NCBI GenBank assembly: GCA_000004985.1 | Contig: GG739200.1 | DNA: 4,040 nucleotides | Source of the DNA: Naegleria gruberi | Taxonomy: Eukaryota | Strand: one strand, 5' to 3' | Shown here: positions 1 through 4,040 of the stretch, piece by piece | Layout: each line of letters begins with the position of its first letter | How positions within the stretch are numbered: position 1 is the stretch's first letter | Notes under the pieces: model-generated | What the model was told of the DNA's origin: nothing | The model's input: only the letters and a program-made list of their open reading frames with translations | Database searches by the model: none | Position numbers and translations under genes: made by a program

Positions 1-200
1 GGGTTAGATTGTTCTCAGAGGAGTATCTTCCAACAAATTCAATCATTATTCCCAAGACAAGTAATAATACTATTATAGCTGTGAAAAGTACTATCATTAC
101 TCAGAAGAGTTCAAATGTTTCTCAGTCTTGGAGAACGTCAATACTCGACTGTATTCATTTCAACTTAAATGCATCAAATAATTCAAACATTACCTTATGA
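1..200 (+). CDS. Possible 3'-terminal coding fragment of an upstream gene, with a Ser/Thr/Asn/Ile-rich tail. The frame is open from the window edge (codons from nt 3) to TGA at 198-200.
   Basis: About 65 codons run without a stop in an AT-rich context where stops are frequent. The track's start at 9 is TTG, not ATG. The product is low-complexity (TNSIIIPKTSNNTIIAVKSTIITQKSSNVSQSW...) with several N-x-S/T sequons. No domain is recognisable, so this may be non-coding. Confidence 0.2.
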   Translation, partial: VRLFSEEYLPTNSIIIPKTSNNTIIAVKSTIITQKSSNVSQSWRTSILDCIHFNLNASNNSNITL

Positions 201-237
201 ACCTGAACAAATGTATAATTGTATTTTCTTCAATTTC

Positions 238-249
238 AAATATTAAAAA
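238..249 (+). promoter_or_regulatory. A-rich translation-start context (AAATATTAAAAA) immediately before the ATG at 250. It contains the 11-mer AATATTAAAAA, which is also found upstream of the gene-2 ATG.
   Basis: Read directly from the sequence. A at -3 and the A-run before the ATG are typical of AT-rich eukaryote start sites. Any role as a core promoter or initiator element is speculative. Confidence 0.25.
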
Positions 250-863
250 ATGTCATTACAACTCATTCCACTCGATACCATCACGATCATTGCTAAATTT
301 CTTTCATTTTCCGAACATCTCCAACTCATGCTAATCAATACCATTTGGTTCCATCTTTTAAATAGTGATGAGATGTGGAGAGGAAGAATAACACAACTCG
401 ACTCTCATCTTTCAATTCATGCCAAGTTGCTCAACAGGGAAGAACCCATTAAACTCCATGCAGAAAGTTCGAATATTAGAGAAATTCTAATGAATATTTA
501 TAAAGAAACCAAGGAATCGATCGATCTAGCATATAAATTGAAAGAATGTAAGAAAATTAAAAAACTCAAAAACACTTGGAGTACTAATTCGGAAGAAATT
601 GAAAACTTTACTAAATTTTGTGAGAATTTCAAATTGGAGGAATATGCGAATTTACTGAAAGAATCAGAGCCAATTAGATGTTGCCTAGTTGGGCCACATG
701 CTATTGGAAAGACCACTCTGTGTTATTATCTTCACCTTAGGAATGAAAAATCCAAATTGGAAGAGTGGTTTTCTGGATGGGGTCCCCATTACTATGATTC
801 GTGTGATATTGATAGAAGTGAAGGTTATTGTTTACAATTAGTAGACACACCAGGTCAGGAAGA
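250..863 (+). CDS. Exon 1 of an F-box/Rho-like GTPase gene. It carries an N-terminal F-box-like motif (about nt 262-378, LIPLDTITIIAKFLSFSEHLQLMLINTIWFHLLNSDEMW). A Lys/Glu-rich linker follows. The small-GTPase G domain starts at about nt 670, with P-loop GPHAIGKT at 691-714 and DTPGQE at 844-861. The exon ends in phase 2 (GA|).
   Basis: The ATG at 250 sits in an A-rich context. A 204-codon open frame covers the exon. The F-box spacing pattern (LP.D....I...L.....L..L..V...W....W) and the G1/G3 GTPase motifs were read directly from the translation. The in-frame TAA at 865-867 lies inside the proposed intron. Confidence 0.7.
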
Positions 864-920
864 GTAAGTTTAATGATTCATTCTCAACCCTTTAATCATT
901 GAATTATTATTATTACTCAG
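864..920 (+). other. Spliceosomal intron, 57 nt, phase 2. The donor is GTAAGTT and the acceptor is ..TTACTCAG.
   Basis: Removing 864-920 joins ..DTPGQE-GA|T-YDRLRPLSY.., which is exactly the Rho-family switch-II consensus DTAGQEDYDRLRPLSY. The canonical GTAAGT donor starts at 864 and an AG acceptor sits at 919-920. The intron holds an in-frame stop and an (ATT)4 run. Confidence 0.65.
903..914. repeat. (ATT)4 trinucleotide run inside the intron.
   Basis: attattattatt is visible in the sequence. Minor. Confidence 0.5.
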
Positions 921-1170
921 TTATGACAGATTAAGACCTTTATCTTATGATAAACCATCCAAATGTCACATTTTTATAATGTGCTATGCAATATCGAGTC
1001 CAGTAATGATGATTAAGTGTTTGGAGGATTTTTCTGATAGATTTCTTCCAGAAATTCAATCATTTTTGGATTACAACAGGTCAGTGTTGGTAGTTGGAAC
1101 AAAATCTGATATTTGTGATTATTCAAAAACAGGAGATTTTCGTTTGGGAAAATATTGGAATAGTTATTTG
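921..1170 (+). CDS. Exon 2 of the F-box/Rho-like GTPase gene, truncated by the assembly gap. It encodes (D)YDRLRPLSYDKPSKCHIFIMCYAISSPVMMIKCLEDFSDRFLPEIQSFLDYNRSVLVVGTKSDICDYSKTGDFRLGKYWNSYL...
   Basis: The frame is continuous with exon 1 after splicing. It aligns collinearly with RhoA residues 63 to about 140 (DYDRLRPLSY ... F.C.S..SP.S.EN..EKW.PE.... ...LVG.K.DL). The G4 motif reads TKSD instead of NKxD. The frame runs open into the N-run at 1171. Confidence 0.7.
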
Positions 1171-2613
1171 NNNNNNNNNNNNNNNNNNNNNNNNNNNNNN
1201 NNNNNNNNNNNNNNNNNNNNNNNNNNNNNNNNNNNNNNNNNNNNNNNNNNNNNNNNNNNNNNNNNNNNNNNNNNNNNNNNNNNNNNNNNNNNNNNNNNNN
1301 NNNNNNNNNNNNNNNNNNNNNNNNNNNNNNNNNNNNNNNNNNNNNNNNNNNNNNNNNNNNNNNNNNNNNNNNNNNNNNNNNNNNNNNNNNNNNNNNNNNN
1401 NNNNNNNNNNNNNNNNNNNNNNNNNNNNNNNNNNNNNNNNNNNNNNNNNNNNNNNNNNNNNNNNNNNNNNNNNNNNNNNNNNNNNNNNNNNNNNNNNNNN
1501 NNNNNNNNNNNNNNNNNNNNNNNNNNNNNNNNNNNNNNNNNNNNNNNNNNNNNNNNNNNNNNNNNNNNNNNNNNNNNNNNNNNNNNNNNNNNNNNNNNNN
1601 NNNNNNNNNNNNNNNNNNNNNNNNNNNNNNNNNNNNNNNNNNNNNNNNNNNNNNNNNNNNNNNNNNNNNNNNNNNNNNNNNNNNNNNNNNNNNNNNNNNN
1701 NNNNNNNNNNNNNNNNNNNNNNNNNNNNNNNNNNNNNNNNNNNNNNNNNNNNNNNNNNNNNNNNNNNNNNNNNNNNNNNNNNNNNNNNNNNNNNNNNNNN
1801 NNNNNNNNNNNNNNNNNNNNNNNNNNNNNNNNNNNNNNNNNNNNNNNNNNNNNNNNNNNNNNNNNNNNNNNNNNNNNNNNNNNNNNNNNNNNNNNNNNNN
1901 NNNNNNNNNNNNNNNNNNNNNNNNNNNNNNNNNNNNNNNNNNNNNNNNNNNNNNNNNNNNNNNNNNNNNNNNNNNNNNNNNNNNNNNNNNNNNNNNNNNN
2001 NNNNNNNNNNNNNNNNNNNNNNNNNNNNNNNNNNNNNNNNNNNNNNNNNNNNNNNNNNNNNNNNNNNNNNNNNNNNNNNNNNNNNNNNNNNNNNNNNNNN
2101 NNNNNNNNNNNNNNNNNNNNNNNNNNNNNNNNNNNNNNNNNNNNNNNNNNNNNNNNNNNNNNNNNNNNNNNNNNNNNNNNNNNNNNNNNNNNNNNNNNNN
2201 NNNNNNNNNNNNNNNNNNNNNNNNNNNNNNNNNNNNNNNNNNNNNNNNNNNNNNNNNNNNNNNNNNNNNNNNNNNNNNNNNNNNNNNNNNNNNNNNNNNN
2301 NNNNNNNNNNNNNNNNNNNNNNNNNNNNNNNNNNNNNNNNNNNNNNNNNNNNNNNNNNNNNNNNNNNNNNNNNNNNNNNNNNNNNNNNNNNNNNNNNNNN
2401 NNNNNNNNNNNNNNNNNNNNNNNNNNNNNNNNNNNNNNNNNNNNNNNNNNNNNNNNNNNNNNNNNNNNNNNNNNNNNNNNNNNNNNNNNNNNNNNNNNNN
2501 NNNNNNNNNNNNNNNNNNNNNNNNNNNNNNNNNNNNNNNNNNNNNNNNNNNNNNNNNNNNNNNNNNNNNNNNNNNNNNNNNNNNNNNNNNNNNNNNNNNN
2601 NNNNNNNNNNNNN
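1171..2613. other. Assembly gap of 1,443 N.
   Basis: An uninterrupted run of n. It separates the 3' portions of two convergent genes. All ORF-track entries made of X are artifacts of this gap. Confidence 0.99.
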
Positions 2614-2881
2614 CATAACATTGATTCTTGGTAGTTATGGCAATTATTAAATTATTTAATTGATTAGTCGTAACAGTAGTAATATATGAAATGGTACCAT
2701 CAAGTTTTGGGAGTGTATAATCTATTTTATGGAAATTAATATGGAGTACTTTAACTTTGTTTACTCCGAGTTGATCTTTCAAGCCTTGTGGAATTTTTAA
2801 TAAATTATCGGATAGAATTAGTTTTACTAATTCTTGTTCATGATCTTCTTGATGTTCTTCTTTTTGTGGAATTCTCTTCAT
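2614..2881 (-). CDS. N-terminal part of a leucine-rich-repeat protein. The product is MKRIPQKEEHQEDHEQELVKLILSDNLLKIPQGLKDQLGVNKVKVLHINFHKIDYTLPKLDGTISYITTVTTNQLNNLIIAITTKNQCY... and continues into the gap.
   Basis: The first ATG on the - strand is the reverse complement of 2879-2881. It is preceded by AAAAAAA, the same A-rich start context as gene 1. A classical LRR signature LxxLxLxxNxLxxIPxxL is present (LVKLILSDNLLKIPQGL), followed by a second LRR-like unit (VKVLHINFHKI). The frame stays open down to the N-run. The upstream in-frame hydrophobic stretch on the track begins at TTG, not ATG. Confidence 0.5.
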
Positions 2882-2892
2882 TTTTTTTGTAG

Positions 2893-2908
2893 TTTTTAAT
2901 ATTAAAAA
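2893..2908 (-). promoter_or_regulatory. A/T palindrome TTTTAATATTAAAA (2894-2907) containing AATATTAAAAA in the minus sense. It lies 12-27 nt upstream of the gene-2 ATG.
   Basis: Read from the sequence. It is a perfect 14-nt palindrome and shares an 11-mer with the gene-1 start region. Its function is speculative. Confidence 0.2.
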
Positions 2909-3694
2909 TAATACCAAAATAAAGATCAGCAAGGCTACACTTTTAAAAAGCAATAAATAAACTCGATTGTTAGCTATCTTTATTCTTCAATAACCTGAAC
3001 AAACAAGATTCGTCCAAGAACTCTTGAATTCACTGTTCATACAGTCAAAGACTGTAGCGGGATTGTCGCCATATTCCTGGCAGGCTTCCCGTCTAAATCA
3101 TTAAGTGAAATTTATTAAAATCTTAAATTTAATTATTTTTTAGTCATTAATATTATTGGCATTCTACATTGGGGCAGTAGTTGATTATGAAGAAACTCTT
3201 TTCATTTTCCAGTATTTAGTACCAAGCCAAATATTTCCTTAGGTGTCCTAAGATTTCAGGATAAAGAACTATTTGCCAAGTTAATTGAAAAAAGACTACA
3301 GCAGCACAGGTTCCCACATCAGTACTACAAAGACCAATGTTAGATTCATTATTGCAGGTGGATTTGTTACACATCTGGTATCTAATTGTGGTTGTTGTGA
3401 TATTGATATTTTCACAATTTCTAATGGGTCTAGTTACGAAATTATCGATGATATGATCATCATAGATTTGGTATTATTTTTTAATGAAAAACTATTATCA
3501 TCATTCCAGTGAAATGTGAGCTTAAAAACTCTCTGAGCCATGTCATGAATGTTTGTGCATGGAGTCTGTGTTCAAATGGGTGCAAATCAACACACAGTGT
3601 ATCCAATCCTCTTCTACTATATTTGATGGCTCTATTTACAATATGATATTCACTACTTTTGTCATACCATTGAAGAGTTACTCATCAAACATCC

Positions 3695-4040
3695 ATGTAC
3701 ATTACTGAAGGTTATTTGGATAGCCATCATAAAAGCAAGTATGGATTCGATAGATGCTACTTGTGCAATCAATACAAGATGGACGGCTTTAAATCCATGT
3801 GTCACAAATGTAAATATTGGAATATTGGAATGGAAAAGATGCATAGAGATCTTTCTGGAAAAGTTGCATTCGTTACAGGAGGAAGATGTAAAATAGGTTA
3901 TGAAACTAGTTTGCTATTATTGAGAATGAAAGCAACTGTAGTGGTCACAACAAGATTTGGCTTTAATGCACTCTCCAAATTCCAGAAAGAAAGCGACTAT
4001 AAGGAATGGAAAGATAATTTGATTATTTACCCTCTGAATT
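3695..4040 (+). CDS. N-terminal part of a short-chain dehydrogenase/reductase (SDR) family oxidoreductase; the ORF runs off the window end. Alternative starts lie at 3779 (MDGF.., strong Kozak context A-3/G+4) and at 3830 (MEKMHRDLSGKVAFVTGG.., the canonical SDR N-terminus).
   Basis: The frame is open from the TGA at 3671-3673 to the window end (122 codons). The Rossmann nucleotide-binding motif KVAFVTGGRCKIGYETSLLLLRMKATVVVTTR was read directly; it has the TGxxxGxG form and a basic Arg after beta-2, which suggests NADP(H) preference. Upstream of that core is an in-frame CYLC-x11-CHKC segment. The ORF track did not list this ORF because it has no stop inside the window. Confidence 0.6.
   Translation, partial: MYITEGYLDSHHKSKYGFDRCYLCNQYKMDGFKSMCHKCKYWNIGMEKMHRDLSGKVAFVTGGRCKIGYETSLLLLRMKATVVVTTRFGFNALSKFQKESDYKEWKDNLIIYPLN

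What the first reader, a model, noticed from the sequence alone, without database searches (positions are those of the whole stretch)
691..1100. Nucleotide-binding and catalytic motifs of the Rho-like domain are degenerate, consistent with a GTPase-deficient or atypical GTPase
The P-loop reads G-P-H-A-I-G-K-T. The position equivalent to Ras Gly12 / Rho Gly14 is His. Non-Gly residues there abolish GAP-stimulated hydrolysis in Rnd, RhoH and RhoBTB-type proteins. Switch II reads DTPGQE, with Pro where Ala59/61 normally sits. G4 reads TKSD instead of NKxD. The switch-I region (LRNEKSKLEEWFSGWGPHYYDSC) is about 4 residues longer than in RhoA, with no clear effector Thr. Such a protein would more likely act as a constitutively bound scaffold or pseudo-GTPase than as a cycling switch.
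Basis: partly seen in the sequence, partly recalled or inferred. Interest (0 to 1): 0.55.

Follow-up and report, generated by a model that had tools for sequence, protein, structure and literature searches.

The report
Atypical F-box-like Rac GTPase, Naegleria
The window holds a Naegleria gruberi gene, already listed in a published catalogue, for a Rac-type small GTPase in which two key switch residues are replaced by histidine, so it probably does not switch on and off in the normal way, although nobody has tested this.

Summary
The window is the 4040-bp Naegleria gruberi scaffold that carries XP_002668220.1.

The gene has exon 1 at 250-863, a 57-nt GT-AG intron at 864-920, and exon 2 from 921 into the N run. 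It encodes a 348-aa protein with three parts: an N-terminal F-box-like module, a Rho/Rac G domain and a CaaX tail (CILC).

Aligned to Rho proteins:
- His150 takes the place of Gly12.
- There is no Thr anywhere in switch I. His180 or Gly176 aligns with Thr35.
- Pro201 takes the place of Ala59.

An independent metagenome contig (98.5% identical DNA) has the same codons, so these are not assembly errors.

- TKSD is the normal Rac-type G4 motif.
- DTPGQ also occurs in an otherwise canonical Rho.
- Lys16, Thr17, Asp57, Gly60 and Gln61 are all kept.
- Switch II matches human Rac1 at 15 of 16 positions and is the best-conserved segment of the protein.

The protein most likely still binds nucleotide but resists GAPs and does not behave as a classical switch. 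It is not a nucleotide-free pseudo-GTPase.

The gene is already listed as "Rac" in Herman et al. 2021, which also describes F-box-GTPase fusions in Naegleria. A sister paralogue has lost switch II altogether. Modest interest: a new member of a known kind.

The parts
250..863 (+). Exon 1 (ATG at 250; aa 1-204 plus two bases of codon 205). The NCBI model XP_002668220.1 reads on into the intron and stops at TAA 865-867, giving 205 aa.
   Evidence: The corrected model in Herman et al. 2021 Table S8 uses the same splice.
262..381 (+). F-box-like segment (aa 5-44: LIPLDTITIIAKFLSFSEHLQLMLINTIWFHLLNSDEMWR)
   Evidence: Pfam F-box E=0.0023-0.038, 14-18 bits, below the 20.5-bit cut-off but covering profile positions 2-42 of 43. 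hhalign to the N-termini of other Naegleria-type Rac proteins: E=1.1e-4, probability 57%. The family profile hits solved F-box proteins (FBXO3 9e-10, beta-TrCP 1.6e-5).
382..669 (+). Predicted helical linker between the F-box-like segment and the G domain (aa 45-140)
   Evidence: Helices in the AF2 secondary structure, at low confidence. Alignable with the linkers of other N-terminally extended Naegleria Rac proteins.
691..714 (+). G1/P-loop GPHAIGKT. His150 (697-699, cat) is at the Gly12 position. Lys154 and Thr155 are kept.
   Evidence: Identical in L001.
739..798 (+). Switch I region (aa 164-183, RNEKSKLEEWFSGWGPHYYD), 4 residues longer overall than in Rac/Cdc42/TC10 and without Thr. His180 (787-789) or Gly176 aligns with Thr35.
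   Evidence: Only 45% identical to the paralogue, against 83-96% in the other regions outside the two switches.
845..863 (+). G3 start DTPGQE(D). Pro201 is at the Ala59 position. Asp199, Gly202 and Gln203 are kept.
864..920 (+). Intron, 57 nt, GTAAGT...CAG, phase 2, with an in-frame TAA at its start
   Evidence: The same intron with 2 mismatches is in L001. The splice restores DYDRLRPLSY.
921..1170 (+). Visible part of exon 2 (aa 205-288): rest of switch II (DYDRLRPLSY, 922-948), beta4-alpha3-beta5, G4, and the start of the Rho insert. It runs into the N run; by colinearity with L001 the stop falls at about 1353.
   Evidence: P0005 and Table S8 give the remaining 60 aa, ending in CILC.
1099..1110 (+). 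G4 TKSD (aa 265-268), the canonical Rac-type TKxD
   Evidence: Compare TKID/TKVD in P0004, P0008, P0012 and P0019.
1111..1170 (+). Start of the Rho insert region (ICDYSKTGDFRLGKYWNSYL...), present at full length
   Evidence: the alignment of Rac1 residues 119-140 shows no gap here, whereas H-Ras lacks the segment.

Best explanation
The finding lies in the G domain of a Naegleria gruberi-specific, divergent Rac-type Rho GTPase (XP_002668220.1, NAEGRDRAFT_76869; true length 348 aa). The protein has an N-terminal F-box-like module, a helical linker, a Rho G domain with a Rho insert, and a C-terminal CaaX box (CILC).

Shown: the residues that hold nucleotide and Mg are intact (GxxxxGKT with Lys154/Thr155, Asp199, Gly202, TKSD, TSS). 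Gln203 and an almost perfectly Rac-like switch II are also kept.

Inferred: the protein most likely still binds guanine nucleotide and is anchored to a membrane by prenylation. His150 at the Gly12 position should block the arginine finger of a RhoGAP. The loss of the switch-I Thr removes the gamma-phosphate/Mg sensor that closes switch I. The domain is therefore probably GAP-insensitive and not a classical on/off switch, and resembles Rnd/RhoH in behaviour.

More speculative: the F-box-like head may tether this G domain to Skp1/Cul1. That would be a Cul1 analogue of RhoBTB-Cul3 and Rab40-Cul5.
For: - Identity: 100% match to the N. gruberi protein on a 4040-bp contig. The gene is listed as 'Rac' with the same corrected splice in Herman et al. 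2021 Table S8.
- Rho family: the best PDB hits are TC10, Cdc42 and Rac at about 1e-14. DYDRLRPLSY and the Rho insert are present. The CaaX box comes from L001 and P0005.
- Substitutions: H150=G12, H180 or G176=T35, P201=A59. K16, T17, D57, G60, Q61 and TKxD are kept.
- Real, not error: L001 has the same codons, and the paralogue has GPHGIGKT.
- Constraint pattern: switch II matches Rac1 at 15/16 positions, against 32% identity over the whole domain. Between the two paralogues every region is 83-96% identical except switch I (45%) and switch II (deleted in the paralogue).
- Relatives: the distant relatives with the same architecture also carry non-Gly at position 12 (P0010 GSSSVGKT, P0023 GLSGSGKY).
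- Literature: a non-Gly residue at G12 goes with GTPase-deficient, non-cycling Rho proteins (PMC2565660, PMC13236570). F-box-GTPase fusions are frequent in Naegleria (PMC8296547 supplement).
- F-box evidence.
Against: - No biochemistry exists. GTP binding, hydrolysis and GAP sensitivity are all inferred.
- Gln61 and switch II are conserved, which is unlike Rnd/RhoH and would suit a protein that still hydrolyses GTP or still meets GEFs and GDI.
- A non-Gly residue at position 12 is compatible with GAP-assisted hydrolysis in other Ras-superfamily branches (Rab and Arf; own knowledge).
- The switch-I alignment is ambiguous. Ser175 lies one residue from the Thr35 column in the HMMER alignment.
- The F-box call is below the Pfam threshold. 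The window protein alone finds no solved F-box protein.
- Both AF2 models were unusable (pLDDT 47 and 39).
- Evidence for selection is weak: dN/dS about 0.57 from only 10 coding changes, and coding against non-coding divergence gives p=0.053.
Confidence: 0.55

Rival explanations
1. It is a working, cycling Rac-like switch despite the substitutions. Gln203 and the intact switch II carry out hydrolysis, possibly with a lineage-specific GAP that tolerates His150, and another residue such as Ser175 or a main-chain contact replaces Thr35.
For: Q61, G60, D57, K16, T17 and TKxD are all kept. Switch II is 15/16 identical to Rac1, more canonical than in Rnd3 or RhoH. DTPGQ is found in an otherwise canonical Rho (P0018). 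Rab and Arf proteins hydrolyse GTP with a non-Gly residue at position 12 (own knowledge).
Against: In Rho and Ras proteins, replacing Gly12 impairs GTP hydrolysis and makes the protein constitutively active (PMC2565660, PMC13236570). No Thr occurs in switch I in either alignment. Switch I is the fastest-diverging retained segment between the paralogues, and the sister copy has deleted switch II. Both points suggest relaxed constraint on switching in this clade.
Confidence: 0.2
2. It is a decaying or functionless recent duplicate in a birth-and-death gene family, and the odd residues are simply drift.
For: - The clade is tiny and confined to N. gruberi-like genomes: an exhaustive search found only 18 hits at E<=1e-3 and nothing between 32% and 82% identity.
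- No 1:1 N. fowleri orthologue is listed.
- The sister lineage lost PGQEDYDRLR plus the intron, and one copy (P0006) is frameshifted.
- dN/dS of about 0.57 cannot be told apart from 1.
- Herman et al. describe birth-and-death evolution in the related F-box Rab-like clades.
Against: - The 348-codon reading frame, the splice sites and the CaaX box are intact in two independent assemblies that differ by 1.5% in DNA.
- No change falls in the 250 nt of exon 2.
- Non-coding flanks and the intron diverge about 3 times faster than coding sequence (5/146 against 10/864).
- Switch II is 15/16 identical to Rac1, which requires long purifying selection.
- The curators did not flag the gene as a pseudogene.
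Confidence: 0.17
3. It is a nucleotide-free pseudo-GTPase scaffold. This is the strongest form of the first reader's reading.
For: Both Gly12 and Thr35 are replaced, and Asp11 is replaced by Pro. The relatives P0023 (GLSGSGKY, LTVADD) and Ng_ACER199 have clearly wrecked motifs.
Against: The P-loop Lys/Thr, Asp57, Gly60, the guanine-specificity TKSD and the G5 TSS are all present in the window protein. Proteins that have given up nucleotide binding usually lose these residues (own knowledge of pseudoGTPase classes).
Confidence: 0.08

Closest known systems
F-box-GTPase fusion proteins of Naegleria (Herman et al. 2021, BMC Biol 19:142, Supplementary Material 4 and Table S8)
   Same: Same organism and same gene set. 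This very gene is listed there as 'Rac', XP_002668220.1*, with the same corrected splice and C-terminus. [quoted passage not shown] The N-terminal module aligns with those of entries flagged as F-box.
   Different: For this entry the table flags no extra domain, because the F-box signal is sub-threshold. The paper does not discuss the G-motif substitutions. Many flagged F-box-Rac proteins have canonical GDGAVGKT/DTAGQE motifs.
Atypical, GTPase-deficient Rho proteins of animals: Rnd1-3 and RhoH
   Same: A Rho-family G domain with a non-Gly residue at the Gly12-equivalent position and a CaaX tail. The expected behaviour is the same: GAP-insensitive and regulated by means other than cycling (PMC2565660, PMC13236570).
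   Different: There is no orthology, and the gene is specific to the Naegleria lineage. Here the residue is His rather than Ser, Val or Ala. Gln61 and switch II are kept (15/16 against 9-10/16), whereas Thr35, which Rnd and RhoH keep, is lost. The N-terminal extension is absent from Rnd and RhoH.
RhoBTB (Rho + BTB, Cul3 adaptor) and Rab40 (Rab + SOCS box, Cul5 adaptor)
   Same: A small-GTPase domain, atypical in RhoBTB, joined in one chain to a module that recruits a cullin-RING ligase (PMC13236570).
   Different: The module here is F-box-like (Skp1/Cul1 type), lies at the N-terminus and is only weakly detected. There is no BTB or SOCS domain. The C-terminus is a plain CaaX tail. Naegleria has separate true RhoBTB genes.
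Canonical Rac/Cdc42/TC10
   Same: These are the best sequence relatives with solved structures. They share DxxGQEDYDRLRPLSY, the TKxD/TQxD G4 motif, the Rho insert and the CaaX box.
   Different: Overall identity is about 32%. The window protein has G12H, no Thr35, A59P, D11P, insertions around alpha1/switch I and before beta4 and alpha3, and a 140-aa N-terminal extension.

Membership tests
Rho family of the Ras superfamily | Ras-like G domain whose nearest relatives are Rho proteins | tested here: met
   Pfam Ras E=2e-12. All 60 listed PDB hits are TC10, Cdc42 or Rac, best E=1.2e-14.
Rho family of the Ras superfamily | Rho insert (about 13 residues between beta5/G4 and alpha4) that H-Ras lacks | tested here: met
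   The alignment of Rac1 residues 119-140 shows ICDYSKTGDFRLGKYWNSYLCKKYDS filling the insert, whereas H-Ras is gapped there. The second half of the insert lies in the N run and was read from L001 and Table S8.
Rho family of the Ras superfamily | Switch II signature DTAGQEDYDRLRPLSY | tested here: met
   DTPGQEDYDRLRPLSY across the intron, 15/16 identical to Rac1.
Rho family of the Ras superfamily | C-terminal CaaX prenylation box | tested here: met
   CILC at the C-terminus in L001, P0005 and Table S8. It is not visible in the window itself because of the N run.
Classical (cycling) small GTPase | Gly at the Ras-12 position and Thr at the Ras-35 position | tested here: not met
   His150 at position 12. 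His180 or Gly176 at position 35, with no Thr in switch I.
Classical (cycling) small GTPase | Catalytic Gln61, the DxxG motif, P-loop Lys/Thr and N/TKxD | tested here: met
   Q203, D199-x-x-G202, K154/T155 and T265-K-S-D268.
Atypical GTPase-deficient Rho proteins (Rnd/RhoH type) | Substitution at Gly12 | tested here: met
   His150. The literature criterion is given in PMC2565660 and PMC13236570.
Atypical GTPase-deficient Rho proteins (Rnd/RhoH type) | Substitution at Gln61 or a degenerate switch II | tested here: not met
   Gln203 is kept and switch II is 15/16 identical to Rac1.
Atypical GTPase-deficient Rho proteins (Rnd/RhoH type) | Measured lack of GTP hydrolysis, or a constitutively GTP-bound state | not testable with these tools
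   This needs recombinant protein.
F-box proteins (SCF substrate receptors) | F-box domain of about 40 residues recognised by profile | tested here: inconclusive
   - Pfam F-box scores 14.4-18.2 bits against a cut-off of 20.5 (E=0.0023 for the 61-aa fragment), covering profile positions 2-42 of 43.
- hhalign to related N-termini: E=1.1e-4, probability 57%.
- The family profile hits FBXO3 at 9e-10, several FBXW proteins and beta-TrCP. Adding the window clade improved most of those E-values.
- The window clade alone finds no solved F-box protein.
- The AF2 model is too poor to use.
F-box proteins (SCF substrate receptors) | Binding to Skp1 | not testable with these tools
   This needs a pull-down or a confident model of the complex. 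The tools would not accept the spliced sequence.
RhoBTB | Tandem BTB domains C-terminal to the Rho domain | tested here: not met
   Only about 35 residues plus the CaaX box follow the G domain, and Pfam finds no BTB domain. Naegleria RhoBTB genes are separate entries in the table.

The most novel reading that the evidence does not exclude
The protein is a prenylated, membrane-anchored SCF (Skp1-Cul1) substrate receptor whose recognition or targeting module is a GTP-locked or state-insensitive Rac domain. That would be a Cul1 counterpart of RhoBTB-Cul3 and Rab40-Cul5, evolved independently in Heterolobosea. Paralogues that go on to delete switch II would show that the G fold is being reused as a plain binding domain.
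Probability: 0.2. Interest if true: 0.55.

Novelty: new member of a known kind. Interest (0 to 1): 0.3.

Why it matters
Small GTPases fused to cullin-ligase adaptor modules are few (RhoBTB, Rab40). Naegleria has expanded F-box-GTPase fusions on a large scale. This gene and its paralogues show three stages side by side: canonical relatives, a copy with G12H and no Thr35 but an intact switch II, and a copy with switch II deleted. They could therefore serve as a natural series for studying how a switch GTPase turns into a non-switching binding module.

On its own the finding adds a residue-level annotation to a gene that is already catalogued. It does not open a new class.

Tried and rejected
1. 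Structure prediction.
- The N-terminal 140 aa gave pLDDT 46.9. The paralogue P0001 gave pLDDT 39.4.
- Both models are too poor for fold search or ligand placement, so no fold search was run.

2. Genomic DNA of the paralogues. P0001, P0003 and P0002 are not on record for look-up by exact protein. dN/dS between paralogues and direct inspection of the paralogue's deletion in DNA were therefore impossible. The deletion is inferred from an intronless ORF call (P0006).

3. Searches for more relatives.
- The word-index protein searches found almost nothing beyond N. gruberi.
- The exhaustive search found only 18 hits.

4. The N-terminal segment alone against PDB gave no F-box hit.

5. Readings rejected.
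- RhoBTB-type: there is no BTB domain.
- Rab-like: all best hits are Rho, and the Rho insert is present.
- Assembly error: the independent contig L001 agrees.
- TKSD and DTPG as signs of degeneracy: both occur in canonical Rho or other working GTPases.

6. The overlapping alternative-frame ORFs (for example 689-841 on + and 498-716 on -) are by-products of the real reading frame.

Full report
**What the window is**

The 4040-base window is AT-rich (32% G+C) and has a run of 1443 N at 1171-2613. The ORF at 250-867 is 100% identical to the Naegleria gruberi protein XP_002668220.1 (NAEGRDRAFT_76869), whose only contig is 4040 bp long. The window is therefore that unplaced scaffold.

**Gene structure**

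- The NCBI model stops at a TAA (865-867) that is really the start of an intron.
- GTAAGT at 864 and CAG ending at 920 delimit a 57-nt intron.
- Removing it joins ...DTPGQE to DYDRLRPLSYDKPSK..., the hallmark Rho switch II sequence.
- Herman et al. 2021 use the same splice in their manually corrected model of this gene (PMC8296547, Table S8).
- An ENA metagenome contig, L001, supports it independently. L001 is colinear with window 161-1170, with 15 mismatches in 1009 nt and no indels. It has the same intron and continues to a stop codon.
- The full protein is 348 aa. Its last 60 residues and the stop codon (61 codons in all) fall inside the window's N run, with the stop at about position 1353. 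It ends in the CaaX box CILC.

**Check of the observation**

- GPHAIGKT is at 691-714, DTPGQE at 845-862 and TKSD at 1099-1110.
- The stretch between GKT and DTxG is 43 residues, against 39 in TC10, Cdc42 and Rac. HMMER places four gap positions in TC10.
- No Thr occurs in that stretch after alpha1.
- The domain is a Ras-superfamily G domain far beyond chance (Pfam Ras E=2e-12). All of the best solved relatives are Rho proteins (TC10, Cdc42, Rac; E about 1e-14).
- HMMER and MAFFT both put His150 at the Gly12 position and Pro201 at the Ala59 position.
- For Thr35 the two alignments differ. MAFFT aligns P179-H180-Y-Y-D-S-C with P-T-V-F-D-N-Y. HMMER aligns Gly176 with Thr35. Neither places a hydroxyl residue there.
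No alignment restores Gly or Thr. The independent assembly L001 has identical codons at these sites, and its only G-domain amino-acid change is K167R. The paralogue XP_002682426.1 reads GPHGIGKT.

**Where the interpretation goes too far**

- TKSD is not a degenerate G4 motif. TKxD is the usual Rac form: TKID or TKVD in P0004, P0008, P0012 and P0019. Cdc42 and TC10 carry TQxD.
- DTPGQ also occurs in P0018, a Rho-family protein with canonical GDGAVGKT and YVPT. DxPG is the normal G3 motif of many active GTPases (own knowledge).
- The residues that bind phosphate, Mg and guanine are all present: Lys154, Thr155, Asp199, Gly202, T265-K-S-D268 and the G5 TSS. So is the catalytic Gln203.
- Switch II is the best-conserved piece of the protein. 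It matches human Rac1 at 15 of 16 positions, while the G domain as a whole is 54/171 identical.
- The domain is therefore atypical through the P-loop and switch I, not through the catalytic switch II. A nucleotide-free pseudo-GTPase is unlikely.

**Relatives**

An exhaustive HMMER search of 1.84 billion representatives with the paralogue found only 18 proteins at E<=1e-3.

Close relatives are all fragments or copies from N. gruberi-like genomes:
- P0002/P0022 and P0005 are the window gene itself.
- P0024 (XP_002672299.1) is a chimeric model on a 310-kb scaffold whose C-terminal half is identical to the window protein's from LRPLSY to the C-terminal CILC (visible in the window only as far as NSYL).
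- P0001 and P0003 are paralogues, and P0006 is a frameshifted copy.

The next relatives are only 24-25% identical over their full length. P0010 and P0007/P0023, from metagenome contigs, have the same layout: an F-box-like head, a linker, a Rho domain and a CaaX box. They also carry non-Gly P-loops (GSSSVGKT, GLSGSGKY).

The published table lists no one-to-one N. fowleri orthologue for this gene or its paralogue.

**Pattern of constraint**

- Against the 80%-identical paralogue P0001, every region is 83-96% identical except switch I (45%) and switch II.
- In switch II the paralogue lacks PGQEDYDRLR. With the intron, that is an 87-nt loss that removes Gly60 and Gln61.
- The same junction appears in an intronless ORF call (P0006), so the deletion is probably in the DNA and not a gene-model artefact.
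- Between the window and L001 there are 7 non-synonymous and 3 synonymous changes (dN/dS about 0.57, too few to test). None falls in exon 2.
- Flanks and intron diverge about three times faster than coding sequence (5/146 against 10/864, Fisher p=0.053).
- Together these results suggest the fold, the linker and the CaaX box are maintained. Switch I is free to vary, and switch II is either strictly kept (window copy) or discarded (sister copy).

**The N-terminal module**

- Residues 5-44 (LIPLDTITIIAKFLSFSEHLQLMLINTIWFHLLNSDEMWR) match Pfam F-box over profile positions 2-42 of 43, but below threshold: 14-18 bits against 20.5, E=0.0023 for the isolated fragment.
- A profile of ten such N-termini hits solved F-box proteins in their F-box regions: FBXO3 at 9e-10, several FBXW proteins, beta-TrCP at 1.6e-5 and FBXL5.
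- The same profile without the window clade gives the same hits with mostly weaker E-values.
- hhalign of the window clade against the rest gives E=1.1e-4 and 57% probability, in register.
- The window clade alone finds no solved F-box protein, and AF2 was uninformative.
- I therefore call the segment F-box-like: probable but not proven.
[quoted passage not shown] Their table does not flag one for this entry.

**Most likely mechanism**

*Shown:* a Rho-family G domain with an intact nucleotide-binding framework, His at position 12, no Thr35, a near-canonical switch II, a Rho insert and a CaaX box.

*From established knowledge:* in Ras and Rho proteins, replacing Gly12 impairs GTP hydrolysis and locks the protein in the active state, and Rnd and RhoH are non-cycling for this reason (PMC2565660, PMC13236570); the usual explanation, a clash with the GAP arginine finger, is own knowledge. 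Thr35 couples the gamma-phosphate and Mg to closure of switch I.

*Inferred:* the protein binds nucleotide and sits on a membrane by prenylation. It is GAP-insensitive, and its switch I does not report the nucleotide state. The retained switch II may still serve binding of GEFs, GDI or partners. The F-box-like head may link the protein to Skp1/Cul1. I put about 0.55 on this package.

*Rivals:* a still-cycling GTPase (0.2), a drifting and functionless duplicate (0.17) and a nucleotide-free pseudo-GTPase (0.08).

**Novelty**

The gene is already catalogued, and the F-box-GTPase theme is already published. The residue-level oddities and the paralogue that lacks switch II are not discussed there. 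This is a new member of a known kind (atypical Rho GTPases; Naegleria F-box-GTPase fusions) and of modest interest.

Noticed in passing
window 1171-2613: A run of 1443 N hides the last 61 codons of the GTPase gene (G5 motif, alpha5, CaaX CILC). By colinearity with L001 the stop codon falls at about 1353. The missing sequence was recovered from L001, P0005 and the published corrected model.
   Followed up: yes
window 864-920 (TAA at 865-867): The public protein model XP_002668220.1 (205 aa) is truncated because it reads into a 57-nt intron that begins with an in-frame stop. The intron length is a multiple of three.
   Followed up: yes
window 262-381: An F-box-like segment lies at the N-terminus of the GTPase. 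The published table does not flag it for this entry. It scores below the Pfam threshold but is supported at family level.
   Followed up: yes
paralogues P0001 (XP_002682426.1), P0003 and P0006, aligned to window 850-936: The sister paralogue lineage reads VDTPYSYDTPSK. Ten residues (PGQEDYDRLR, including Gly60 and Gln61) and the intron are missing, an 87-nt loss. P0006 also carries frameshifts, so at least one copy is a pseudogene.
   Followed up: partly
P0024 (XP_002672299.1, 310-kb N. gruberi scaffold), matching the window-gene protein from LRPLSY (window 931) onward: A chimeric gene model (NHL/EGF-like N-terminus fused to TPGQEE-LRPLSY...CILC) carries a second half identical to the window protein's, up to the C-terminal CILC. 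The 4040-bp scaffold may be an allelic or redundant copy of a locus on that large scaffold. P0003 (DUF4116 plus the paralogue's second half) is a similar case.
   Followed up: no
window about 161, against L001 161-283: The window and the metagenome contig L001 share the 5' flank, but L001 has about 123 extra bases inserted roughly 90 nt upstream of the ATG.
   Followed up: partly
window about 3700-4040, + strand: An open frame runs off the window end: ...CYLCNQYKMDGFKSMCHKCKYWNIGMEKMHRDLSGKVAFVTGGRCKIGYETSLLLLRMKATVVVTTRF... It has a Rossmann-type GxxxGxG-like motif. The match to short-chain dehydrogenase is weak (Pfam adh_short E=0.015, below the cut-off). It is probably the 5' part of a neighbouring gene, with possible upstream exons in 3000-3700.
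   Followed up: partly
window 2614-2953, - strand: An ORF runs from about 2953 or 2881 (MKRIPQKEEHQEDHEQELVKLILSDNLLKIPQGL...) into the N run. It has no Pfam family (best E=0.033), and its function and extent are unknown.
   Followed up: partly
relatives P0010, P0023, P0014, Ng_ACER821: In the alignment, seven of the eight N-terminally extended Naegleria-type Rac proteins lack Thr at the Thr35 column, including two with a canonical GDGxVGKT P-loop; only Ng_XP678060 keeps it. Loss of the switch-I Thr may therefore be older and more widespread in this group than the G12H change. The switch-I alignment is uncertain.
   Followed up: partly
C-termini of the window protein and relatives (CILC, CMLC, CLLC, CLIC): The CaaX box ends in Cys in the window gene, in both paralogues and in the distant relative P0010. 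Other Naegleria Rac proteins end in M, Q, L or T. This may indicate a clade-specific preference in prenylation.
   Followed up: no
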